Source of the DNA: a virus
Virus record (IMG/VR): IMGVR_UViG_3300044712_000815
Location: 64,001-128,000 of that record
DNA: 64,000 nt
Strand: one strand, 5' to 3'
Shown: piece after piece, positions 886 to 10,960 of the stretch
Numbering within the stretch: position 1 is the stretch's first letter
How the letters are laid out: every line of letters begins with the position of its first letter
Notes under the pieces: model-generated
Seen by the model: the letters and a program-made list of their open reading frames with translations, nothing else
Told to the model about the DNA's origin: nothing
The model's database searches: none
Made by a program: the position numbers and the translations under genes

Positions 886-3234
886 ATGAAACCAGTCCTT
901 ATTGTAGAACATTGTATGGATGGTCTAAAATTAAAACCCGTAAATGAATCTCAAGATCCAAAAAAAGGTTATATTTTAAGTGGTACTTTCACCGAATTCA
1001 ATATTAAGAATAGGAACGATCGAGTTTATACTGCTGAAAAATTTTTACCACATCTTGATGAGTTATTGGCTCGTAAGAAACAGATGACCGTTGTTTATGG
1101 GGAATTTGACCACCCAGATGTGTTTGACACTTCATTATCAAGGGTTTCGCACACAATCGAAAACGCATTTTATGTTAAAGAATCAAATTTAGTAAAAGGT
1201 GAAATTAGATTACTCAATACACATTGGGGTAAAGAAGCGAAAGCACTTGTGGATGATGGTTGTCCAATTTTTGTATCATCTAGAGCTGCTGGTATCACAG
1301 AATCTGATGGTACTGTAACTGTTAAAAAACTTTTTACTTATGATGCCGTTGCTGACCCCGGTTTTTCATCAGCTAGAATGGAAGTTAAATCTATAAATGA
1401 AAGTTTAGGATTTAATGAAACCGCAAACTTTAGGATATATGATATATCTGACGAGTCAAAAATAAATGAATTATTTAGTATGAATCCAAATGACTTTGTA
1501 TCAAAAAAACACATGGTCGAGTATTCAAAGTATCTAACAAAGGAAATAGAAGATTTTAAAAGTACAATTAATGAAGCTATTAAAACAAAAAGTAATTATG
1601 ATCCTTCAAAGTTAGACCAAATGTTTACTTACTATGAAACTCTACATGAACAACAAACAAAAGTTGCAAAATATTTAGATTATCTTTCTGAAAAATTGCA
1701 AATTGTTGTAAATGAAAACGTCCAGTTGAAAAAAACAACAACAAAATTAATTGAACACAATGATTATCTTGCAGAAAATCTTGAAAAAGTAGGTAACTAC
1801 ACAGAATATATTGCAGAAAATCTTGACAAATCTATCGAATATGGTAAATATATTGCAGAAACCTTAGACAAAAATATCGACTTTTCTGAATACATTGCTG
1901 AACACGTAGATAAAAATATCAAATATTCAGAATACATTGCTGAAAATCTTGATAAAACAATAGATTATTCAGAATACATTGCTGAAAATCTTGATAAAAC
2001 AATAGATTATTCAGAATACATTGCTGAAAATCTTGATAATTCAATAGTATATGCAGAATATATTGCTGAAAATCTTGATAACAATATTGCATATTCAGAA
2101 TATATCGCTGAACATGTTGACAATAATATTTCATATTCGGAATATATCGCTGAAAATCTTGATGATTCAATGGCTTACACTAATTATATTGCTGAAAGTC
2201 TTGATAAAACAATTGAAAGATCAAAACTTCTTACAGAACAATTAAAAAATGGTAAAGTTCTTGAAAATTTCGATTTTATTAAAGATGAAGATATAAAAGG
2301 TGATGTAGATAAATATTATGAAGATGCAATTCCAACAGCAAATGCAGAAGAAACAGTAGATCAACCAATCACACCAGCAGAAGGTACAGAACCAGCAGAA
2401 GCTCCAGCAGAAGGTGCTCCAGCAGAAGGTGCAGAAGAAGTTCCAGCAGAAGGTGCAGAAGAAGTTCCAGCAGAAGGTGCAGAAGAAGTTCCAGCAGAAC
2501 TACCAACCGAAGAACCAAATGTTCAAGGTGAAGGTGGTGAAATAACTCCAGGTGAAACAGTTGCAATTGGTGATCAAACAGGTGAAGTTCTTGCCACTAA
2601 TCCACAAACAGGTATAATTGTAGTACAATTAGATACACAAGAAGAACCTGTTGAAGTTCAAGAATCAAAAGTTACCAGACTTGGTAGCAAATTAAGACTT
2701 GTCGAAAAGTCATTAAAAGAAAATCTAAATACATTGATCCAAGAAACTAAAAAACGTAAAGCTTCTGAAGATGATCAACCAAATTTCTTAATGTTCTTAA
2801 CTGAAAAACGTAAAGCAGCTTATTATTCATTGTCAAACGAAGACAAAACTAAGGTAAAAATCGCACTAAAAGAAAGCGAAGGAAAATACACTAGTGAAGC
2901 CCAAGTTATCGCAATTATAAATGAAGCTTTATCACCAAAAAGAAAATCATTTGATGAATTATTGCTTGATGCAATGCCATCTGAATTAAAACCTATATGG
3001 GAAAAATTAGATGCAAATGTCCAAGGTCAAATCCTTGCTACATCAAGATTATATAATGCATTGGATTCAGAACAAAAATTTGAAAGTTTTTGGTTAAGTA
3101 GAGACCTCGCACGTTACACAAACGAAAAACCTGCAAAACAATTAATCACTGAAAATCATATCGTAGATGATTCTAAATTAACTGAATCACAGATAGATCG
3201 TTTCAAATCAGTATTTAATAAATTGAATTCTTAA
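886..3234 (+). CDS. Prohead core protease (T4 gp21-like) fused to a scaffold-like region
   Basis: N-terminal KNRNDRVY, GEFDHP, VSH, VSSRAAG, TYDAVADPGF motifs; then coiled-coil with 14-aa EYIAENLDK repeats and a PAEG linker; directly upstream of MCP. Confidence 0.9.
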   Translation: MKPVLIVEHCMDGLKLKPVNESQDPKKGYILSGTFTEFNIKNRNDRVYTAEKFLPHLDELLARKKQMTVVYGEFDHPDVFDTSLSRVSHTIENAFYVKESNLVKGEIRLLNTHWGKEAKALVDDGCPIFVSSRAAGITESDGTVTVKKLFTYDAVADPGFSSARMEVKSINESLGFNETANFRIYDISDESKINELFSMNPNDFVSKKHMVEYSKYLTKEIEDFKSTINEAIKTKSNYDPSKLDQMFTYYETLHEQQTKVAKYLDYLSEKLQIVVNENVQLKKTTTKLIEHNDYLAENLEKVGNYTEYIAENLDKSIEYGKYIAETLDKNIDFSEYIAEHVDKNIKYSEYIAENLDKTIDYSEYIAENLDKTIDYSEYIAENLDNSIVYAEYIAENLDNNIAYSEYIAEHVDNNISYSEYIAENLDDSMAYTNYIAESLDKTIERSKLLTEQLKNGKVLENFDFIKDEDIKGDVDKYYEDAIPTANAEETVDQPITPAEGTEPAEAPAEGAPAEGAEEVPAEGAEEVPAEGAEEVPAELPTEEPNVQGEGGEITPGETVAIGDQTGEVLATNPQTGIIVVQLDTQEEPVEVQESKVTRLGSKLRLVEKSLKENLNTLIQETKKRKASEDDQPNFLMFLTEKRKAAYYSLSNEDKTKVKIALKESEGKYTSEAQVIAIINEALSPKRKSFDELLLDAMPSELKPIWEKLDANVQGQILATSRLYNALDSEQKFESFWLSRDLARYTNEKPAKQLITENHIVDDSKLTESQIDRFKSVFNKLNS
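1765..2210 (+). repeat. About 11 coding 42-nt (14-aa) repeats, (S/A)EYIAE(N/H)(L/V)D
   Basis: Visible at DNA and protein level. Confidence 0.9.
2374..2499 (+). repeat. PAEG / PAEGAEEV coding repeats
   Basis: ccagcagaaggtgcagaagaagtt x3 plus shorter units. Confidence 0.9.
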
Positions 3235-3326: not shown

Positions 3327-5168
3327 ATGAATTTAATAGTAGACAATCAAAAAGCTATCGCAAAATGGAAACCTGTTTTGGAATCTCTAGGTGTTGATGA
3401 TCCTTACAGAATGAAATGGATGGCAGAGTACGCTGAAATGCACTCATTAAATGAAAACGTAGCTTATAGTACACTTGGTAACCTTAATGGTATGGGTGCT
3501 ATTCAAGCTGCACAACCATCAGCAACTCCAGGTTTAGTTTGGGGTGATTATGGTGCTGGTACTCCAGGTGGAATTGGTTCTGGTGATATTGGTCAGAATT
3601 TACTTCCAGTTTCAATGAAAATTGCTGCACAAACTATTGGTTTGGATTTAGTAGCTGTTAAACCAGCTTCATCACCAAAAGTTGATATGTTATTCGTAGA
3701 TTTCAAATATGATAACTTAAATGATAGCACATTGAAAGACGAAAGACCAATTATGTTCCAATTGAACTTATCAGGTGGTCTTACAACTTTGAACACAGCT
3801 TTAAAAGCAGCTATGGCAACTAAATTAGATGCTAATTCACAACCAGTAAGAGAAAAAATCGGTGGTTTAACTAATCCTATTTTTGTACACTTATCAGGTG
3901 GTACTTTAACAGTAAACAATACAACAGCTAACGTTGGTGCAACTAGTACATTGGCAGCTTATTTCTTAAAAGGTGCTCCTGTTACTGCTCCAATTATTCA
4001 AGGATTTGATCCAACATTGACCAATTATCCAGCTAATGGTACAAGCCCAGCAAAAGAAGGTTGGTTAGAATTTTTAGGATGGTCAAGAATTAATGGTTAT
4101 CCAATGTTTAGATGTTTCCGTCAATTTAACACAGGTGCAAATAACGCAGGTTTCGGTTTTGTTGATGATAGAAATACTTTCCCAACAGCAGCATATCCAA
4201 TCGTAGATATGTTAAACTCTAGTGTATCAATGCAAATTGCTACAACAGCAGCAGTTGTAACCGAAGTACCTTTAACAGGTGCAACTATTCAATTGGTTTC
4301 ATTGCTTGAAGATCATATTCCTGGTTTTTCAGCAGGTTGGTACTTAAACAAACCTATGACAAGAGATGAAGATGAAAGAACTTATCCAAACGTAATTGGA
4401 CCAGACATTTTCACAAAAACAATCCAAGTTGGTGATGTTGAAATTAGTTCAAGCTTAAAACGTACTCAAATTGAAGATATTAAAGCTGCAACAGGTATGG
4501 ATATCGTTCAAAAACTTGAATCAGTTCTTGTAAATGAACTTACTCAAACTATTAGCAAACAAATTATTTCTAAAGTAACTGAAATGGCTGACAAAAACCG
4601 TACAGCATGGACAACACCAAAAGACACTTTAGGTAATCCTAAATTTGACTTTAACGTTGATACATATTTAGCAGTTGGTGCAGCTACCCCAGGTGGTGAA
4701 ACTACTCATAGTATTCAAAGAAAATTGATTGCAAAAATCAATAACGCTTCTAACTTCATCGCAACTGAAGGTCGTGTTGGACCAGCTCAATACCTTGTAA
4801 CCAATGGTAATTTAGCATCAGTTATTCAAGATGTTGCTGGTTATACCCTTAACCCAGTAAAAGCTAACTTAAACGCTAATGGTCAATTATTCCCTATGGG
4901 TAATGTTGGTAATATTAGTATTTATGTTGACCCTTACCAAAGATGGGATGACAACAGAATCTTCTTAGGTCGTAAAAATAGTGTTGAACAACCAGGTTTG
5001 GTATTCGTACCTTATTTGATGGCACAGTCAATTCAACTTATTTCAGAAGCAACTTGGGCTCCAAGAATGTTGATTAGAAGCCGTTATGCAGTTGCAGACA
5101 TTGGATTCTTTCCTTGGAAACAATTTATGACTATAGTTGTTACAGACAGCGCAGGTGTACTTATCTAA
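3327..5168 (+). CDS. Major capsid protein (T4 gp23-like)
   Basis: KWKPVLE N-terminus, AAQTIGLDLVAVKP, ESVLVNELTQTISKQI, IYVDPY, GLVFVPY, RSRYAV; biased codon usage typical of high expression. Confidence 0.95.
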   Translation: MNLIVDNQKAIAKWKPVLESLGVDDPYRMKWMAEYAEMHSLNENVAYSTLGNLNGMGAIQAAQPSATPGLVWGDYGAGTPGGIGSGDIGQNLLPVSMKIAAQTIGLDLVAVKPASSPKVDMLFVDFKYDNLNDSTLKDERPIMFQLNLSGGLTTLNTALKAAMATKLDANSQPVREKIGGLTNPIFVHLSGGTLTVNNTTANVGATSTLAAYFLKGAPVTAPIIQGFDPTLTNYPANGTSPAKEGWLEFLGWSRINGYPMFRCFRQFNTGANNAGFGFVDDRNTFPTAAYPIVDMLNSSVSMQIATTAAVVTEVPLTGATIQLVSLLEDHIPGFSAGWYLNKPMTRDEDERTYPNVIGPDIFTKTIQVGDVEISSSLKRTQIEDIKAATGMDIVQKLESVLVNELTQTISKQIISKVTEMADKNRTAWTTPKDTLGNPKFDFNVDTYLAVGAATPGGETTHSIQRKLIAKINNASNFIATEGRVGPAQYLVTNGNLASVIQDVAGYTLNPVKANLNANGQLFPMGNVGNISIYVDPYQRWDDNRIFLGRKNSVEQPGLVFVPYLMAQSIQLISEATWAPRMLIRSRYAVADIGFFPWKQFMTIVVTDSAGVLI

Positions 5169-5188: not shown

Positions 5189-5221
5189 AAAAAAGAAGGA
5201 ATTTATTCCTTCTTTTTTTTT
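5189..5221 (+). terminator. Rho-independent terminator after MCP
   Basis: aaaagaaggaat-tt-attccttctttt followed by a T-run. Confidence 0.85.
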
Positions 5222-5273: not shown

Positions 5274-7250
5274 ATGATTTTAATAGACAAAATACAAATA
5301 ACTGTAACCAATAAAAATGTTGGTTATTATAATCAATTGGGTTATAATGTAAAATCTGGTGATATTATTGATGTTAATATTAATCATTTGCCAAAAACTT
5401 CCAAATTAATAATTGATGTTTCCTGTGATGAATGTAACAGAAAATATAATATATCATACTATTCATATTTAAGAAATATCAAAAATGAAATATATCACTG
5501 CAAAAAATGTTCTGGGATTCGATCAAAAGAAACAAATTTAAAAAAATATGGAGTTGATCATCCATTAAAATTAGAAGAATTTAAAGAAAAAACGAAAGAA
5601 ACTAATTTAAAAAAATATGGTGTAGAATATTCTATGCAAAATAAAGAAATTAGGGAAAAATCAAAAATCACAATAAATGAAAAGTATGGATCATTAGAAT
5701 ATATGTCAACAGATGATTTTAAAGAAAAATCAAAAATAACATTAAATAAAATATATGGGGTAGATTATCCACTACAGAATAATTCAATAAAAATTAAGGT
5801 TGAAAATACTTGTTTAGACCGATATTTAGCTAAATCACCATTTGAATCATATTTTATTAAGGATAAAATATCTAACACAAAAAAAGAAAGATATAATGAT
5901 GAATTTTATAATAATAGGATAAAATATAAACATACGTGTTTAGAAAAATTTGGATTTGAAAATCCAATGCAAAATGAATCAATAAAACAAAAATTATCTA
6001 ATATCATATTTGAAAAATATGGTGTATATTATCCATCGCAAAATGAATTAATTTATCAGAAAATGTTAAAAAATGGTTTACATATTTTTAAATATAAAGA
6101 TTCAGATATTTTTTATCAAGGAAAATATGAATTGGATTTTTTAAATAAATACTATGATAAAATAGATTTAAAAAGAGGCAAATCTATAAAATATATTTTT
6201 GATAATAAAGAATATACATATTATCCGGATTTTTATTTAGAAGATTTAAATTTGATAATAGAAATAAAATCATCATTTTGGTTTAATAAACACCATATTA
6301 AAAATTTGGAAAAACAAAAAAAATGCAAAGAAAATGGATTTAATTTTATATTTATAATAGATAAAAAATATGAAATATTTGATAAAATGATTGAACATAT
6401 AGTATATAATAAAGAACATTCTTGGCAATATGATTTAAGATTAAAATTATTAAAAGAAGATATAAAAAAAATTAATTTTAATTATGAAAATTTGAAAATA
6501 TCAGATTTTAATTTCGAATTTATAGAAAAAAATGATATTAGAACTAAAGAAATAGTCGAATTTATAAAAAAATATGAATGGCTTGGTAAAATGCCAAATA
6601 GACCCACACATAGGTTTATTGCGACATACAACAATATATTAGCTGGTGTTATTGTAATGTCAACACCAAATTCTTTTTCGATGATGTTGGGTGAAAATAC
6701 ACAAAATATAGAAAAACTCATTAGTAGAGGTGCTTGTGCATCTTGGACACCAAAAAATTTAGCTAGTTCATTATTAATGTGGTCCATTAATTGGATGGTT
6801 AAAAATACCGAATTTAGATTGTTTGAAGCATATGCTGACCCCGAAGCAAAAGAACTTGGCACTATATATCAAGCTTGTAATTTTTATTATGTTGGCGATA
6901 ATTTTGGTTCTGATAAATTATATTTTGATGTAGAAAAAGATAATGGGTGGGTTAACAATAGAAGTTTTAGAAAATTAAATTTTTATAAATCTTTCTTAAA
7001 AAAGAATAATATTGATTGGAATGATAATTGGAACAAAAAAACAACAATACTTTGGAATAATATACCAAGTGGTATTGTAGATATTATGAAAAAATATTCA
7101 TTAGAATGTATGAACAATTGTCTAGTTAGAAAGCCAAAAAATAAACATAAATATGCATATGTTATTGGTAATAGTAAGAAAGAAACTAAGATATTAAGAA
7201 AAAAGTTTGAAACTATAAATAAAATTTATAATTATCCAAAAAATAGATAA
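5274..7250 (+). CDS. Fusion: Zn-finger/KYGV-repeat PD-(D/E)xK endonuclease plus C-terminal Mom-like GNAT domain
   Basis: CDEC..CKKC; TNLKKYGV repeats; YYPDFYLEDLNLIIEIKS; C-terminal ISRGAC..TPKNLAS..AYADPEAKELGTIYQACNFYYVG resembles Mu Mom. Confidence 0.75.
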   Translation: MILIDKIQITVTNKNVGYYNQLGYNVKSGDIIDVNINHLPKTSKLIIDVSCDECNRKYNISYYSYLRNIKNEIYHCKKCSGIRSKETNLKKYGVDHPLKLEEFKEKTKETNLKKYGVEYSMQNKEIREKSKITINEKYGSLEYMSTDDFKEKSKITLNKIYGVDYPLQNNSIKIKVENTCLDRYLAKSPFESYFIKDKISNTKKERYNDEFYNNRIKYKHTCLEKFGFENPMQNESIKQKLSNIIFEKYGVYYPSQNELIYQKMLKNGLHIFKYKDSDIFYQGKYELDFLNKYYDKIDLKRGKSIKYIFDNKEYTYYPDFYLEDLNLIIEIKSSFWFNKHHIKNLEKQKKCKENGFNFIFIIDKKYEIFDKMIEHIVYNKEHSWQYDLRLKLLKEDIKKINFNYENLKISDFNFEFIEKNDIRTKEIVEFIKKYEWLGKMPNRPTHRFIATYNNILAGVIVMSTPNSFSMMLGENTQNIEKLISRGACASWTPKNLASSLLMWSINWMVKNTEFRLFEAYADPEAKELGTIYQACNFYYVGDNFGSDKLYFDVEKDNGWVNNRSFRKLNFYKSFLKKNNIDWNDNWNKKTTILWNNIPSGIVDIMKKYSLECMNNCLVRKPKNKHKYAYVIGNSKKETKILRKKFETINKIYNYPKNR

Positions 7251-7281: not shown

Positions 7282-8088
7282 ATGGATAAAATTAATATAA
7301 TTATCTTTTCGAAAGATAGAGCTTGTCAACTCGAATTATTTTTGCGATCAATGAAATTTTATTTCAAAGAATTTGATCAACATATTATTAATGTTTTGTA
7401 TACATATTCTGATAATACATTTAAAGATGGATATGATAAATTATTTTGTATACATAATGATGATAATATAAATTACATAAAAGAAAACGAATATCCATTC
7501 AAAAAATATGTTATATCACTATTAAATCAAGAAAATCCATATACTATATTTTTTGTAGATGATATTATATTTAAAAATAATTTTACATTAGATTGTAAAC
7601 AATTTGAATTGTTTACACACAACGATGATATTTTAACATTATCACTAAGACTACATCCACATTTGACTTATTGTTATGCTGCAAGTCACGTAATGAATCC
7701 ACCAAAGTTTGATTCTGATTTATTATTTAAATGGTATGGATCAGAAGGTGATTATGGTTATCCGATGTCGCTTGATGGTCATTTTTTCAGAACAAGTGAT
7801 ATTTTAACACTCACCACAATGATTAATTTCAATAATCCAAATTCATATGAAAGTATGTTGGCTTGTTATCCGATAAACAGAATGAAAATGCTTTGTTTTG
7901 AAGATTCGATAATTATAAATAATCCTATTAATAAAGTACAACACTTCAACAATAATGTACATGGTAATATATCAGCAGAATATTTAAATGATATGTTTTT
8001 AGATGGAAATATTATTGATTTTGAATATTTTAAAGAAATAAAAAATATTTCTTGTCATCAAGAAACAAAAATAAATTTTATAAAATGA
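7282..8088 (+). CDS. Putative GT-A fold glycosyltransferase
   Basis: IIIFSKDRACQL, FFVDDIIF, GYPMSLDGH motifs. Confidence 0.65.
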   Translation: MDKINIIIFSKDRACQLELFLRSMKFYFKEFDQHIINVLYTYSDNTFKDGYDKLFCIHNDDNINYIKENEYPFKKYVISLLNQENPYTIFFVDDIIFKNNFTLDCKQFELFTHNDDILTLSLRLHPHLTYCYAASHVMNPPKFDSDLLFKWYGSEGDYGYPMSLDGHFFRTSDILTLTTMINFNNPNSYESMLACYPINRMKMLCFEDSIIINNPINKVQHFNNNVHGNISAEYLNDMFLDGNIIDFEYFKEIKNISCHQETKINFIK

Positions 8089-8234
8089 TAAGTTTAAAAA
8101 AGAAATATTGGTATAAAACTAATATTTATGTTTGTGTATTATGTGGTATTGAAAAAAAACATAAAACACGAGTTTATTCTGAAAAAGAAAAGGGTATAGT
8201 GTTGCACGATGATATATGTTGGGAACACCTTTAA
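8085..8234 (+). CDS. Small Cys-containing hypothetical protein
   Basis: ATGA overlap with the upstream stop; CVLCG and CWEH. Confidence 0.5.
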   Translation: MISLKKKYWYKTNIYVCVLCGIEKKHKTRVYSEKEKGIVLHDDICWEHL

Positions 8235-8860
8235 AAAAAATAAAAAATATGTTAGAAATAATAAAAAAATATGAATTAGAATATTATTTAAAAATTCTTA
8301 TAACTGAAAATGAAGGTAATAATAACTATTATCACAATTTTCAACATATAACAACAGTAATGATGAATGTTTATCATATAGCATTACATGAAGATTTATC
8401 CCGAAAAAAAATCAGATTATTATTAATTGCTGCATTGTTTCACGATTTCAATCATTCTGGTGGAAAATTAAATGATTCTGAAAACATAAAATTAGCTATT
8501 GAAGCATTTGAAAAATATAGTAAAGAATCAGATAAACACAATAAATTTATTATTGATATTATTAAATGTACACAATATCCATACAATGTTGAAGAAGATG
8601 AAAATTTAACAAAATGCCAAAAAATTATAAGAGATGCAGATTGCTTACATAGTATTGAAGATAATTTTATTCAGCAAATTTTGTTCGGATTAAGTAAAGA
8701 AAGTGGTGGTAATTTAACTATAACAACATTAAAAAATCAAATAAAATTTATGGAAGAATTAAAAGTATTTACTTCTACTGGAAAATCTAAATATAAATCA
8801 AATTTATCTAAAAAAATTAATGATTGTAAATATTTAATTAAAATTTTAAATGGAAAATAA
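8216..8860 (+). CDS. HD-domain phosphohydrolase (true start probably 8249)
   Basis: YHNFQH, AALFHDFNHSG, IIRDAD. Confidence 0.85.
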   Translation: MLGTPLKKIKNMLEIIKKYELEYYLKILITENEGNNNYYHNFQHITTVMMNVYHIALHEDLSRKKIRLLLIAALFHDFNHSGGKLNDSENIKLAIEAFEKYSKESDKHNKFIIDIIKCTQYPYNVEEDENLTKCQKIIRDADCLHSIEDNFIQQILFGLSKESGGNLTITTLKNQIKFMEELKVFTSTGKSKYKSNLSKKINDCKYLIKILNGK

Positions 8861-9095
8861 TATAGAAATTTTAAATGATCTATCAGATAAAATATTTGAA
8901 GATGCAATAAAAAATGGAATTCTTTCTGATATAGAAAGTGATAAAAATTATGCTGGATATTTTATGTATATGTATAGTATTAATAATATACACTATTTTA
9001 AACATAAAATGACTAGAAAATATGGTTATGATTATGATACAATAATGGAAGCGTGTAATTTGTGGTATGCATCAAGAAAAAAAACAATATTATGA
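8850..9095 (+). CDS. Hypothetical protein
   Basis: ORF coupled to its neighbours. Confidence 0.6.
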   Translation: MENNIEILNDLSDKIFEDAIKNGILSDIESDKNYAGYFMYMYSINNIHYFKHKMTRKYGYDYDTIMEACNLWYASRKKTIL

Positions 9096-9898
9096 AAAAT
9101 AAAATTAAAATAATAGATCATATGTTTGCCCATGCGAAATATAGTACGGATTATCAAGAATCTGAATATATTGATTGGGATAGAACACCAATATTACCAA
9201 CTGATGATACGATATTCTATACAGATTATAGTTTAGATCAGGTTAGATCAAATAAAACAACATATGCTTGGTTATTGGAATCACCAGATATAACAACACA
9301 ATCATATAATTGGATTTCTAATAATAACAAAAAATTTACCAAAGTTTTAACACATAGCAAAGAATTATTAGATCGGGGCGAAAATTTTATATTTTGCCCT
9401 ACTGGTGGTTGTTGGATTAAACCCGAAGATCAAAAAATATATGAAAAAACAAAAATAATTTCAATAATTGCATCAGCAAAAAGAATGACCCGTGGTCATT
9501 TGTTAAGACATCAAGCTATTCAACAATTTAAAAATATTGATGTATATGGTAGAGGATATAATCCAATTGATTATAAATTAGATGGATTAAAAGATTATGC
9601 ATTTTCTTTAACTATTGAAAATACAAAAAAAGATTATTATTTCACAGAAAAATTAATTGATTGCTTTATGACAGGAACAGTACCTATATATTGGGGATGT
9701 CCATCAATAGACAAAATATTTCATCCTGATGGTATGATATTTTTTGATAATGTTGATGAACTTGATAATATATTAAACAATTTGTCTTTAGATAAATATA
9801 ATTCAATGAAAGATGCAATTTTATATAATTTTTTTATGGCAAAACAATATAGAATAGCAGAAGATTATATTTATAAAAAAATAATAAATAAAATATGA
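9092..9898 (+). CDS. GT10-like (fucosyltransferase-type) glycosyltransferase
   Basis: YAFSLTIEN..DYYFTEKLIDCF..GTVPIYWG. Confidence 0.85.
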   Translation: MKNKIKIIDHMFAHAKYSTDYQESEYIDWDRTPILPTDDTIFYTDYSLDQVRSNKTTYAWLLESPDITTQSYNWISNNNKKFTKVLTHSKELLDRGENFIFCPTGGCWIKPEDQKIYEKTKIISIIASAKRMTRGHLLRHQAIQQFKNIDVYGRGYNPIDYKLDGLKDYAFSLTIENTKKDYYFTEKLIDCFMTGTVPIYWGCPSIDKIFHPDGMIFFDNVDELDNILNNLSLDKYNSMKDAILYNFFMAKQYRIAEDYIYKKIINKI

Positions 9899-10206
9899 AA
9901 TTAGGTGAATTTATAGAAAAATTTAGTCACAATAATTTGATTAGACTTGTGTATAAACACAAAGGTGGAAATGAAATTGTATTAGAAACGTGGGATGATG
10001 TTTCAATGGATTGGGAAGTAAATAAAGGGAAAGGTAAAAATAGACATTATATAAATAATGAAGTGCTTGGATTGGCTTCAATTTGTGGGATAGGTCATTA
10101 TCCTGAAGCAATAAATATTATTATTGAAAGATTAGATAATCAACCATTTATTGATGAAATTATTGATGAAAGTAATTATAATTGTACTATGAATAATTAT
10201 GAATGA
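9895..10206 (+). CDS. Hypothetical protein
   Basis: ORF overlapping both neighbours. Confidence 0.65.
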   Translation: MKLGEFIEKFSHNNLIRLVYKHKGGNEIVLETWDDVSMDWEVNKGKGKNRHYINNEVLGLASICGIGHYPEAINIIIERLDNQPFIDEIIDESNYNCTMNNYE

Positions 10207-10960
10207 TTTTAAAAAAATAATGGACAATTATATTAACAATAGTCCAATATGGACTATGTTAGAAGATAATTTCAATAAATATTATATTGAAGATCAAAAA
10301 ACTATAAATATACCAAAAAAAATACATCAAACTTGGTTGGGTAGTAAAATTCCAGATAAATATACTAGGATTATTGAAACTTGGAAGGAAAAAAATCCAG
10401 ATTGGGAATATAAGTTGTGGACTGATGATGATATTGAAAGTTTCAAATTGGAAAATATTGAAAGTTTTAATAAAATAAATAATCTTGGGGCAAAAACTGA
10501 CATTTTAAGATATGAAATATTATATAGAGAAGGTGGGTTGTATATAGATACGGATTTTGAATGTTTAAAAAGTTTTAACGATTTAATATATTTAGATTTA
10601 TTTTCAGGTACAGGTCATGTTGATGTTCCTGAAGTTTTTAATGGCCTTATTGCGTGTAAACCTGGTCATCAATTGATGCGAAAATTAATTGATGATATAA
10701 AGGTTATTGATACTAATGATTTTAATAAAATAATATCATTAACAGGACCTAAATATTTTTCTAGTAAATTATTCGAATGGATTAAAGATAATCCTACTGA
10801 TAAAATTGTTGTTTTTCCGACTAAATTTTTTTATCCATTTCCAGCTGAACATAGATTTATGATTAGAAATGATGATGAAAATAGTCGTAATATAGTTAAC
10901 CAATTTAATACGGAAAAATCATATTGTACCCATTTATGGTATACTAGTTGGCAAAAATAA
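10199..10960 (+). CDS. GT32-like (DXD) glycosyltransferase
   Basis: IPKKIHQTW, DILRYEILYREGGLYIDTD, HLWYTSW. Confidence 0.9.
   Translation: MNDFKKIMDNYINNSPIWTMLEDNFNKYYIEDQKTINIPKKIHQTWLGSKIPDKYTRIIETWKEKNPDWEYKLWTDDDIESFKLENIESFNKINNLGAKTDILRYEILYREGGLYIDTDFECLKSFNDLIYLDLFSGTGHVDVPEVFNGLIACKPGHQLMRKLIDDIKVIDTNDFNKIISLTGPKYFSSKLFEWIKDNPTDKIVVFPTKFFYPFPAEHRFMIRNDDENSRNIVNQFNTEKSYCTHLWYTSWQK

What the first reader, a model, noticed from the sequence alone, without database searches (positions are those of the whole stretch)
5274..7250. Endonuclease fused to a Mom-like DNA-modifying domain
One uninterrupted 658-aa ORF joins a homing-type PD-(D/E)xK nuclease (PDFYL..IIEIKS) to a domain with the Mom signature (AYADP...GTIYQACNF.Y.G). 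Mu Mom hypermodifies adenine. A cut-plus-modify polypeptide would be an R-M-like system using non-methyl modification, possibly to exclude unmodified competitor DNA. The alternative is a homing endonuclease inserted in frame at the 5' end of a mom gene.
Basis: partly seen in the sequence, partly recalled or inferred. Interest (0 to 1): 0.7.

Follow-up and report, generated by a model that had tools for sequence, protein, structure and literature searches.

The report
Homing-type nuclease fused to Mom enzyme
A gene just after the capsid gene of an uncultured giant phage joins a homing-endonuclease-type DNA cutter to a close structural relative of phage Mu's DNA-modifying enzyme Mom; the fusion is real, old and widespread, but the design and the "cut plus modify" idea are already in print and have never been tested at the bench.

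Summary
Window 5274-7250 (+) is one 658-aa ORF with four parts: a Zn ribbon, eight 23-residue helical repeats, a PD-(D/E)xK nuclease and a Mom-family GNAT. The best structural match of the GNAT is the Mu Mom crystal structure (8bv8, Z 18.1).

The fusion recurs in more than 66 protein clusters, down to 48% identity. The nuclease residues (E286, D319, E330, K332) and four residues that Mu Mom needs (R485, S498, D522, Y532) are invariant or nearly so. Mu's essential R151 is a conserved Glu here.

The gene sits in a nuclease-gene hot spot 3' of the major capsid gene. Related phages carry this fusion, a Hef-like nuclease-Mom-like gene, a DUF723-Vsr nuclease gene, chimeras, fragments or nothing at that site. 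So the gene has homing-endonuclease ancestry and behaviour, but it is long-lived and has co-diverged with the capsid gene.

The same Mom clade is also fused to LAGLIDADG, HNH, integrase and HTH modules.

The R-M-like reading is plausible and unproven. Iyer et al. (2021) already published it for jumbo phages. This scan has met nuclease-Mom fusions on many other genomes, mostly of the Hef type; first readers noted this DUF7487 type on at least three.

Verdict: a new member of a described but untested kind.

The parts
5274..7250 (+). Whole ORF, 658 aa plus stop: the nuclease-Mom fusion (P0001)
5274..5513 (+). N-terminal beta-rich head, residues 1-80, with a CxxC...CxxC zinc ribbon (C51, C54, C76, C79; nt 5424-5510)
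   Evidence: The four Cys are present in 66/65/66/66 of 66 fusion clusters. AF2 model m87c8bc242e70 has pLDDT 84-91 here.
5514..6077 (+). Eight tandem 23-residue helix-loop repeats, residues 81-268 (consensus K.K.T...KYG...P.Q), the presumed DNA-reading array
   Evidence: Repeat anchors lie at residues 91, 114, 137, 160, 183, 206, 225 and 248. Scaffold positions are conserved and the other positions vary among orthologues. AF2 shows a regular 23-residue helix spacing. This is the least conserved region of the protein.
6078..6398 (+). PD-(D/E)xK (restriction-endonuclease-fold) nuclease domain, residues 269-375, with catalytic E286 (nt 6129-6131), D319 (6228-6230), E330 (6261-6263) and K332 (6267-6269)
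   Evidence: VIA-align matches over model residues 270-375: TnsA Z 8.4, NGO0050 Z 8.2, Vsr Z 8.1, I-Bth0305I Z 7.9, VRR-NUC Z 7.6. E286 is present in 65/66 clusters and D319, E330 and K332 in 66/66.
6399..7247 (+). Linker helix plus Mom-family GNAT domain, residues 376-658. Equivalents of Mu Mom residues: R485 = R111 (nt 6726-6728), S498 = S124 (6765-6767), D522 = D149 (6837-6839), E524 in place of R151 (6843-6845), Y532 = Y159 (6867-6869), W559 = W181 (6948-6950), and the C-terminal YPK (7233-7241).
   Evidence: AF2 model m25b6b10b48ba has pLDDT 91.6. Foldseek's top hit is 8bv8, E 1.5e-10. VIA-align gives Z 18.1, 195 residues aligned, rmsd 2.9 A. hhalign gives 96.5% probability.
5189..5218 (+). 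Terminator-like hairpin followed by a T run, between the capsid gene and the fusion gene
   Evidence: sequence read
3327..5168 (+). Context: gp23-type major capsid protein gene. The fusion gene lies 105 nt downstream of it.
   Evidence: Pfam Gp23, E 5e-25. Nearest database relatives are the 0.46-0.74 Mb uncultured phages LR756500-4 and LR745206.
7282..8088 (+). Context: the conserved 268-aa downstream gene ('d1') that marks the other edge of the variable nuclease-gene slot
   Evidence: In L023 and L025 its homologue follows the capsid gene, with a different nuclease gene between them.

Best explanation
The gene encodes one polypeptide built like a free-standing homing endonuclease: a Zn ribbon, eight 23-residue DNA-reading repeats and a PD-(D/E)xK nuclease. 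A genuine Mom-family enzyme is attached in frame. The gene occupies a slot just 3' of the major capsid gene that, in this clade of huge T4-like phages, is a hot spot for mobile nuclease genes.

Most likely both catalytic centres work. The N-terminal modules bind particular DNA sites. The nuclease cuts those sites in DNA that lacks the mark, such as co-infecting relatives without the gene and perhaps host DNA. By analogy with Mu Mom, the Mom domain transfers an amino-acyl group from a charged tRNA (glycyl in Mu) to N6 of adenine in double-stranded DNA at or near the same sites, so the carrier's DNA is spared. Functionally this would be a selfish single-chain 'cut and protect' module. It would work like a Type IIG restriction-modification enzyme, but with the ancestry and genomic behaviour of a homing endonuclease and with a tRNA-dependent, non-methyl mark.

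Shown: the domain identities, the folds, the conservation of catalytic residues, the recurrence of the fusion, and the turnover at the locus. Inferred: both enzymatic activities, the donor, the target sites, and the claim that the mark blocks the cut.
For: Architecture and folds.

Catalytic residues across 66 fusion clusters of 48-94% identity: nuclease E286 in 65/66 and D319, E330, K332 in 66/66; Mom-equivalent R485, S498, D522, Y532 and W559 in 66/66. These map onto Mu Mom R111, S124, D149, Y159 and W181, residues that Silva et al. 2026 found essential or important (PMC13219725). The 195 residues aligned to 8bv8, against about 145 for ordinary GNATs, indicate that the Mom-specific insertion is kept.

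Both halves diverge at the same rate and in step with the neighbouring protease and capsid genes. The capsid and fusion trees share all major clades.

Homing-type behaviour of the locus: of 46 related capsid loci with at least 3.3 kb of downstream sequence, 16 carry this fusion, 10 carry a Hef-like Vsr + Mom-like gene instead, 7 carry only DUF723-Vsr genes, chimeras or truncated copies, and 13 carry none of these. L023 and L025 keep the flanking synteny but have a different nuclease gene in the slot. L039 joins the same N-terminal module to another nuclease, L067 has a truncated copy and L060 has a Mom fragment.

Independent fusions: the same Mom clade is joined to LAGLIDADG_2 (P0331, P0301), HNH (P0256), DUF7487 and REase_MTES_1575 and TnsA_N. 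The contig holds two more nuclease + Mom-like genes of the Hef type.

Interdomain contact, weak: complex prediction for nuclease domain against Mom domain scored 0.47, with 0.08 as the best of 3 controls. That mark was reached by 58 of 80 solved complexes and 2 of 110 mismatched pairs, but at 0.60 or under by only 7 of those 80 solved complexes and by both mismatches that passed. The runs agree in at least 75% of contacts, and the partner's pLDDT is at least 85.

Published prediction of the same logic: Iyer et al. 2021.
Against: There are no biochemical data for any member of this family.

Mu Mom's essential R151 is a conserved Glu here (E524 in 63/66 fusions; K526 two residues on in 64/66). 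The donor, the product or even the activity may therefore differ. The mapping of H58/Y59 is ambiguous.

A cutter and a modifier tethered to the same reader would act on every DNA molecule in a co-infected cell, so the self/non-self logic is not obvious.

The capsid and fusion trees are congruent, so there is no sign of recent lateral homing.

The Mom clade also occurs without any nuclease: stand-alone in Vibrio phage 501E54-1, and fused to HTH_17, an integrase or ParB-HTH. The nuclease is therefore not needed for whatever the Mom domain does.

Thirteen of 46 related loci carry no such gene at this site, so it is dispensable.
Confidence: 0.45

Rival explanations
1. It is a plain selfish homing endonuclease. 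The Mom-like domain serves only as an extra DNA-binding, base-flipping or dimerisation module, or has some non-protective role, and does not mark DNA. Immunity of the carrier genome comes, as in other free-standing homing endonucleases, from sequence differences at the target site.
For: The slot 3' of the capsid gene turns over among unrelated nuclease genes. The sister architecture (Vsr + Mom-like) is what phage annotators call Hef-like homing endonucleases. Hef of phage U5 is reported to cleave nrdB (review PMC2988022), and Taylor et al. 2011 place it in the Vsr-like homing family (PMC3239194). LAGLIDADG and HNH fusions to the same Mom clade look like homing endonucleases rather than restriction enzymes. 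R151 is replaced.
Against: R485, S498, D522, Y532 and W559, which match Mu Mom's catalytic or important residues, are invariant in 66 clusters and nearly so in the wider clade. A mere binding module would not be expected to keep them. The Mom clade also exists without any nuclease.
Confidence: 0.2
2. It is mainly an anti-restriction momylase. The Mom domain modifies the phage genome broadly before packaging, as in Mu, to evade host restriction. The N-terminal module is a domesticated DNA tether, and its nuclease degrades host DNA or has a minor role.
For: The gene is long-lived, co-diverges with the capsid gene, and shows purifying selection on both halves. It lies in the late head-gene cluster, after a terminator-like hairpin and with its own upstream region; Mu mom is also a late gene. 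Relatives of the Mom clade carry only DNA-binding N-termini, HTH_17 or ParB-HTH.
Against: Presence is patchy among close relatives: L023 and L025, with 86% capsid identity, lack it. An eight-repeat reader suggests long, rare sites rather than genome-wide marking. The nuclease residues are invariant. The locus behaves like a homing-endonuclease slot.
Confidence: 0.2
3. The GNAT domain does not act on DNA at all. It might, for example, acylate a tRNA, a protein or a small molecule, and the similarity to Mom reflects only shared ancestry.
For: R151 is replaced by Glu. There is an 8-residue conserved insert (EWLGKMPN) near the H58/Y59 region, and the insertion is longer than in Mu Mom. Silva et al. 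2026 stress that GNAT substrates cannot be read from the fold.
Against: Every fusion partner found is a DNA-binding or DNA-cutting module. The best structural match, with a clear margin, is Mom including its DNA-cleft insertion.
Confidence: 0.07

Closest known systems
Phage Mu Mom (PDB 8bv8; Silva et al. 2026, PMC13219725; Karambelkar et al. 2020, PMC7261163)
   Same: Both have the GNAT fold with the Mom-specific insertion: Z 18.1, 195 residues aligned, rmsd 2.9 A. hhalign gives 96.5% probability over 197 columns. Equivalents of R111, S124, D149, Y159 and W181, the P-[KR]-N-x-x-S motif and the C-terminal YPK are kept.
   Different: Mu Mom is a stand-alone protein of about 231-241 aa regulated by Com. 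Here the domain follows 375 aa of Zn ribbon, repeats and nuclease. Essential R151 is Glu, W48 (the dimer contact) is Asn by the hhalign mapping, and the insertion is longer. Sequence identity is only about 18-20%.
Mom-REase fusions of jumbo phages as described by Iyer, Anantharaman, Krishnan, Burroughs and Aravind 2021 (Viruses 13:63, PMC7824862)
   Different: That paper gives a computational prediction only. Most isolate-phage examples appear to be of the Hef type (Vsr-like nuclease plus a much more divergent Mom-like domain). This gene has a classical D...ExK nuclease (DUF7487) and a Mom domain much closer to Mu Mom.
Hef and 'Hef-like' free-standing homing endonucleases (phage U5 Hef, Sandegren et al. 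2005; Campylobacter phage NCTC12673 Hef60, CP220, LIMEstone F-Lim, RaK2, AR9)
   Same: The domain order is the same: Zn ribbon, KYG-type repeats, nuclease, GNAT-like tail. Both kinds are multi-copy, patchily distributed and sit next to conserved genes. Two such genes lie in this same contig and many lie in the same capsid-gene slot in relatives.
   Different: Hef-type nucleases are Vsr/EDxHD-like. Their C-terminal domain matches Mom only weakly (Pfam 23-32 bits; hhalign E 0.002, 13.7% probability) and carries a glycine-rich stretch (V-V-G-G-A-S) at the position where, from my own knowledge, ordinary GNATs have their CoA-binding motif. The gene studied here has the Mu-type P-K-N-x-x-S there.
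I-Bth0305I (EDxHD homing endonuclease; PDB 3r3p; Taylor et al. 2011, PMC3239194)
   Same: An N-terminal modular DNA-binding region is followed by a small C-terminal REase-fold nuclease. The nuclease domains superpose at Z 7.9 with 19% identity.
   Different: I-Bth0305I is intron-encoded, uses the Vsr-type EDxHD site and has no GNAT domain.
Type IIG / IIC single-chain restriction-modification enzymes (for example MmeI, BcgI; from my own knowledge of the families)
   Same: One polypeptide carries a PD-(D/E)xK nuclease, a DNA-modifying domain and a DNA reader. Cut and modify compete on the same sites.
   Different: In those enzymes the modifier is a SAM-dependent methyltransferase, whereas here it is a (presumably aminoacyl-tRNA-dependent) GNAT. 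No homology exists beyond the nuclease fold. The genomic behaviour here is that of a phage homing-endonuclease gene.

Membership tests
Mom family (Pfam PF25680; prototype Mu Mom) | Scores above the curated Pfam cut-off | tested here: met
   45.2 bits against a cut-off of 27.1, E 1.1e-11; 49.1 bits in the genome search
Mom family (Pfam PF25680; prototype Mu Mom) | GNAT fold with the Mom-specific (HTH-like) insertion; Mom is the nearest solved structure | tested here: met
   8bv8_A: Z 18.1, 195 of 222 residues aligned, rmsd 2.9 A. The next GNAT scores Z 14.3 with 142 aligned. Foldseek gives E 1.5e-10 against 1.2e-05 for the next hit.
Mom family (Pfam PF25680; prototype Mu Mom) | Essential residues R111, S124 and D149 (plus Y159 and W181) | tested here: met
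   R485, S498, D522, Y532 and W559 by hhalign; each is present in 66/66 fusion clusters
Mom family (Pfam PF25680; prototype Mu Mom) | Essential residue R151 | tested here: not met
   The aligned position is E524: Glu in 63/66 fusions and 41/48 of the wider clade. A K/R follows two residues later.
Mom family (Pfam PF25680; prototype Mu Mom) | Gly-tRNA(Gly)-dependent formation of N6-carbamoylmethyl-dA in dsDNA | not testable with these tools
   Needs expression and LC-MS as in Silva et al. 2026
PD-(D/E)xK (restriction-endonuclease-fold) nucleases | Core alpha-beta fold | tested here: met
   Model residues 270-375 match only REase-fold proteins among the top hits: TnsA 8.4, NGO0050 8.2, Vsr 8.1, I-Bth0305I 7.9, VRR-NUC 7.6, Bax1 7.2, Hjc 5.8. 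These Z values are middling, but the hits are uniform in fold and cover the whole domain.
PD-(D/E)xK (restriction-endonuclease-fold) nucleases | Catalytic E ... (P)D ... (D/E)xK motif | tested here: met
   E286, D319, E330-I-K332; conserved in 65-66 of 66 clusters
Vsr-like / EDxHD homing endonucleases (I-Bth0305I, Hef) | EDxHD catalytic signature with the Vsr-type His | tested here: not met
   This protein has the classical D-x10-E-x-K arrangement and no F-x-x-G-x-x-W-H / EDxHD block. The two paralogues elsewhere in the contig do have one.
Free-standing homing endonuclease genes | Nuclease plus modular DNA-binding region, encoded between conserved genes | tested here: met
Free-standing homing endonuclease genes | Presence/absence polymorphism at one site in otherwise syntenic relatives; alternative nuclease genes in the same slot; decayed copies | tested here: met
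   16 of 46 loci carry it. L023 and L025 have the same flanks and a different nuclease gene. There are chimeras (L039), a truncation (L067) and a Mom fragment (L060).
Free-standing homing endonuclease genes | Gene phylogeny discordant with the host genome (lateral spread) | tested here: not met
   The capsid and fusion trees share all major clades and differ only at weakly supported nodes or within one major clade. Identity tracks the flanking genes.
Free-standing homing endonuclease genes | Cleavage of the gene-less allele and gene conversion in mixed infection | not testable with these tools
   The phage is uncultured; an in vitro assay on L023-type alleles would be needed
Single-chain restriction-modification (Type IIG-like) logic | Nuclease and modifier in one polypeptide with a shared DNA reader | tested here: met
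   A conserved junction (invariant Q385) and no conserved internal start.
Single-chain restriction-modification (Type IIG-like) logic | The modification blocks cleavage by the same enzyme | not testable with these tools
   Needs biochemistry

The most novel reading that the evidence does not exclude
Mom-family domains may be a general, catalytically active accessory of homing endonucleases built on at least four unrelated nuclease folds: PD-(D/E)xK, Vsr/EDxHD 'Hef', HNH and LAGLIDADG. Such mobile nucleases would chemically mark DNA with a tRNA-derived amino-acyl group. The mark could make the carrier genome immune to its own cutter, or could label repaired or converted DNA. The conserved Glu in place of Mu's R151 would define a clade that uses a different donor or makes a different adduct from 6-NcmdA.
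Probability: 0.25. Interest if true: 0.8.

Novelty: new member of a known kind. Interest (0 to 1): 0.42.

Why it matters
Mom was shown only in 2026 to be a tRNA-dependent DNA aminoacyl-transferase (Silva et al., PMC13219725). The fusions described here place that chemistry on the same chain as site-specific nucleases of several unrelated folds, and no one has assayed any of them.

If the Mom half is active, these proteins would be the first restriction-modification-like or self-immunising homing elements to use a non-methyl, tRNA-derived mark. The 23-residue repeat array would also be a candidate programmable DNA reader. If the Mom half is inactive, the case shows an enzyme fold recruited as a DNA-binding module.

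This member is a good test object. Its Mom domain is much closer to Mu Mom than Hef-type tails are. Both active sites are invariant across deep divergence. Natural 'empty' and 'alternatively filled' alleles of its locus are in hand as candidate substrates.

Tried and rejected
**Searches that gave nothing**
- Profile searches of both halves against PDB sequences found nothing useful.
- NCBIfam gave no hit.
- Foldseek on the whole 375-aa N-terminal model gave no hit at E <= 0.001. Only the exhaustive VIA-align search resolved the nuclease fold.
- hhalign of the clade profile against the single Mu Mom sequence aligned only 27 columns. Global mode failed. A Mu-side profile of 72 sequences was needed.
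- No tRNA gene lies in the window; the 15 tRNA genes are elsewhere in the contig.

**Tools and papers not available**
There is no read-level test of expression or of presence/absence variants within a sample.
- Sandegren et al. 2005 (PMC1275590) and Iyer et al. 2009 (PMC2995806) are not held. What I say about U5 Hef therefore rests on the review PMC2988022, on Taylor et al. 2011 and on database annotations. I could not check that U5 Hef itself carries the GNAT-like tail.

**Readings rejected**
- A recent or accidental in-frame insertion, because the fusion is conserved, both halves are conserved equally and the junction is conserved.
- A separately translated Mom, because there is no conserved start at the border.
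- An assembly chimera, because the same ORF is found on many independent contigs from JGI, ENA and Logan.
- My own interim reading of a 'stable core gene, not mobile' (after), because only 16 of 46 related loci carry it.
- A special link between the five phage tRNA-Gly genes and Mom chemistry: noted, but not supportable from these data.
Full report
**Observation.** Window 5274-7250 (+) is a single 658-aa ORF. Pfam finds DUF7487 at residues 151-356 (E 2.7e-51) and Mom at residues 422-565 (E 1.1e-11, 45.2 bits against a cut-off of 27.1). PHROGs calls the N-terminal part 'homing endonuclease' (phrog_12131, phrog_3339, phrog_15137) and the C-terminal part 'Mom-like DNA modification protein' (phrog_1384). 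The window is part of a 159,264-bp viral contig that CheckV rates about 22% complete. The gene lies 105 nt after a gp23-type major capsid gene, which in turn follows a gp21-type prohead protease gene. The capsid protein's nearest database relatives are uncultured huge phages of 0.46-0.74 Mb. A terminator-like hairpin (5189-5218) separates the capsid gene from the fusion gene.

**Anatomy, N-terminal half.** I modelled residues 1-375 with a 36-sequence alignment (pLDDT 88.4). The model shows three parts.
- A beta-rich head carries a CxxC...CxxC zinc ribbon. C51, C54, C76 and C79 are present in 66/65/66/66 of 66 fusion clusters.
- Eight helix-loop repeats with a 23-residue period span residues 81-268 (consensus K.K.T...KYG...P.Q). 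Their scaffold positions are conserved and the rest varies among orthologues.
- A compact domain at residues 270-375 matched only restriction-endonuclease-fold proteins in an exhaustive structural search: TnsA Z 8.4, NGO0050 8.2, Vsr 8.1, I-Bth0305I catalytic domain 7.9, VRR-NUC 7.6, Bax1 and Hjc. These Z values are middling, but the hits are uniform in fold and cover the whole domain.

The classical motif E286 ... P-D319 ... E330-x-K332 is present in 65-66 of 66 clusters. The motif is not the Vsr/EDxHD type.

**Anatomy, C-terminal half.** I modelled residues 376-658 with a 48-sequence alignment (pLDDT 91.6). The best PDB match is the crystal structure of Mu Mom, 8bv8. Foldseek gives E 1.5e-10, against 1.2e-05 for the next protein. 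VIA-align gives Z 18.1 with 195 of 222 residues aligned at 2.9 A. Ordinary GNATs reach at most Z 14.3 with about 145 aligned, so the Mom-specific insertion is matched too.

A profile-profile alignment against 72 Mu-type Moms gives 96.5% probability over 197 columns. It maps Mu residues onto this protein as follows:

| Mu Mom | This protein | Conservation |
|---|---|---|
| R111 | R485 | 66/66 fusions |
| S124 | S498 | 66/66 fusions |
| D149 | D522 | 66/66 fusions |
| Y159 | Y532 | 66/66 fusions |
| W181 | W559 | 66/66 fusions |
| C-terminal Y-P-K | YPK 654-656 | Y 48/48, P 44/48, K 46/48 in the clade alignment (A1) |
| R151 | E524 (not conserved) | Glu in 63/66 fusions; K526 in 64/66 |
| H58/Y59 | ambiguous, next to a clade-specific 8-residue insert | - |

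Silva et al. 2026 showed that R111, S124, D149 and R151 are essential, that the insertion is required, and that Mom uses Gly-tRNA(Gly) to modify dsDNA (PMC13219725). This is therefore a true Mom-family member with one changed active-site residue.

**Is the fusion real and recurrent?** Yes. A search of 5.8 billion proteins returned 716 relatives. The top 70 or so are full-length proteins of 640-663 aa at 48-94% identity, carrying both Pfam domains, from JGI, ENA, NCBI and Logan assemblies and on contigs of up to 711 kb. Both halves are equally conserved. The junction contains an invariant Gln (Q385), and no Met is conserved at the border. A separately translated Mom or a recent insertion is therefore excluded. 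A fold of the nuclease domain against the Mom domain gave only weak support for a contact. The score was 0.47, with 0.08 as the best of three controls. That mark was reached by 58 of 80 solved complexes and 2 of 110 mismatched pairs, but at 0.60 or under by only 7 of those 80 solved complexes and by both mismatches that passed. The runs agree in at least 75% of contacts, and the partner's pLDDT is at least 85.

**Behaviour of the locus.** My first look at three relatives suggested a stable, syntenic gene. Its identity to the window's copy was 72, 68 and 56%. The flanking protease was 74, 75 and 49% identical, and the capsid protein 85, 83 and 55%. A wider sample changed that picture. I collected 70 capsid-gene loci at 46-99% identity. 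Of these, 46 have at least 3.3 kb of sequence downstream of the capsid gene. Their content at that site is:
- 16 carry this fusion;
- 10 carry instead a Hef-like gene (Zn ribbon/repeats + Vsr-type nuclease + Mom-like tail);
- 7 carry only DUF723-repeat + Vsr-type nuclease genes, chimeras or truncated copies;
- 13 carry none of these on the + strand.

Several individual loci are instructive.
- L023 and L025 (capsid 86% identical) keep the flanks capsid -> d1 -> glycosyltransferases but have a 250- or 318-aa DUF723-Vsr nuclease gene in the slot.
- L039 joins the same N-terminal reader (49% identical over residues 1-233) to a DUF723-Vsr nuclease without Mom.
- L067 has a truncated reader, L053 and L054 have the DUF7487 nuclease without Mom, and L060 keeps only a 147-aa Mom fragment.
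- Several loci stack two or three such genes.

Replacement, shuffling and decay of this kind are the classic signature of free-standing homing-endonuclease slots. Where the fusion is present, however, its tree shares all major clades with the capsid tree. It is therefore an old resident that has been repeatedly lost or displaced, not a recent invader.

**Wider pattern.** The same contig holds two more genes, at C1:7253-8872(-) and C1:137710-139356(-), outside this window. Each has a Zn ribbon, KYG repeats, a Vsr-type nuclease and a GNAT-like tail. The tail of the first of these genes (C1:7253-8872), used as query, matches 410 phage records, many annotated Hef, Hef60 or Hef-like homing endonuclease: Campylobacter Fletcherviruses with up to 12 places per genome, CP220, RaK2, AR9, Jersey and Dickeya phages. 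The relation of that tail to Mom is much weaker (Pfam 23-32 bits; hhalign E 0.002).

A profile of the present Mom clade finds 1041 clusters at 50% identity (E <= 1e-3) among 1.84 billion proteins. About 57 of the best 150 have N-terminal extensions of 180 aa or more. I scanned 30 of these against Pfam. Four carry DUF7487 (one also with REase_MTES_1575) and two carry LAGLIDADG_2, with one further weak LAGLIDADG_3 match. One each carries HNH, a tyrosine recombinase, a ParB HTH and a treble-clef/CapR module; one more (P0271) carries DUF4160 and DUF2442 on a C-terminal extension. Eighteen have no Pfam match in the extension. HTH_17, DUF723 and TnsA_N fusions also exist, and a 290-aa stand-alone form occurs in Vibrio phage 501E54-1. 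The Mom clade has therefore been joined repeatedly to site-specific DNA cutters and binders of unrelated folds.

**What is known.** The homing-endonuclease literature treats the Hef type as mobile nucleases (PMC2988022, PMC3239194, PMC3296691) and, in the papers I could read, does not mention the GNAT tail. I found no paper on DUF7487 and none that assays any nuclease-Mom fusion. This scan has also met the theme repeatedly on other genomes. Most of those cases are the Hef type, and follow-up agents reached the same 'described but untested' verdict. First readers noted the DUF7487 type on at least three other genomes.

**Mechanism, with odds.**
- Most likely (0.45): a selfish single-chain cut-and-protect module. 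The Zn ribbon and repeats read DNA sites, the nuclease cuts them when unmarked, and the Mom domain marks adenines there with an amino-acyl group from charged tRNA.
- Rival (0.2): a plain homing endonuclease in which the Mom fold only binds DNA.
- Rival (0.2): chiefly an anti-restriction momylase with a domesticated tether.
- Rival (0.07): a GNAT with a non-DNA substrate.

The invariance of both active sites argues for two activities. The R151-to-Glu change, the existence of nuclease-free forms and the unresolved self/non-self logic are the main doubts. Nothing here measures activity.

**Verdict.** The gene is a new member, and a well-behaved test object, of a described but experimentally untouched kind.

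Noticed in passing
G000:C1:7253-8872 (-) and G000:C1:137710-139356 (-); same contig, outside the window: Two more genes (about 520 and 541 aa) have a Zn ribbon, KYG repeats, a Vsr-type nuclease (FEFNG..WH block) and a GNAT-like tail. This is the Hef-like type. Related phages carry one upstream of the protease gene and often another in the capsid-gene slot.
   Followed up: partly
G000:C1:20313-25721 (outside the window): The contig encodes 15 tRNAs, and five of them are tRNA-Gly (tcc x2, acc, gcc x2). Mu Mom uses Gly-tRNA(Gly). The coincidence is noted only; the array also holds Pro, Ala, Thr, Val and Arg tRNAs.
   Followed up: no
L017:8001-11274 and L018:8001-12111 (bacterial contigs of 2.9 and 2.0 Mb): HTH_17-Mom proteins of the same Mom clade (about 50% identical to the C-terminal half) sit immediately upstream of two or three tyrosine-recombinase genes and downstream of an FtsK/SpoIIIE gene. 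They are therefore inside integrative elements. One representative (P0250) is a direct integrase-Mom fusion.
   Followed up: partly
L039:8961-10451; L067:8849-9700; L060:8831-9274: These are snapshots of module shuffling and decay in the capsid-gene slot. L039 has a chimera of this gene's N-terminal reader with a DUF723-Vsr nuclease. L067 has a truncated reader-only ORF. L060 has a 147-aa ORF that keeps only the last part of the Mom domain.
   Followed up: partly
window 5514-6077: The eight 23-residue repeats have conserved scaffold positions (K, T, Y, G) and variable positions between them. This makes them a possible modular DNA-reading array. No solved structure was matched to this part, because the nuclease domain filled the hit lists.
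   Followed up: partly
window 7282-10960: Directly downstream lie a conserved 268-aa protein without a Pfam match, an HD phosphohydrolase, a GT10-like glycosyltransferase and a DXD (Gly_transf_sug) glycosyltransferase. Relatives have other glycosyl- and methyltransferases here (L011). I did not examine whether they act on the virion or on DNA.
   Followed up: no
window 886-3234: The prohead protease gene encodes 782 aa, but only about the first 280 residues match protease families (PHROG 207, Peptidase_S77/S80). The long C-terminal extension is unassigned.
   Followed up: no
L016:15520-15941: A TnpB/Cas12f-like (OrfB_IS605) gene lies near the capsid cluster of a related 73-kb contig.
   Followed up: no
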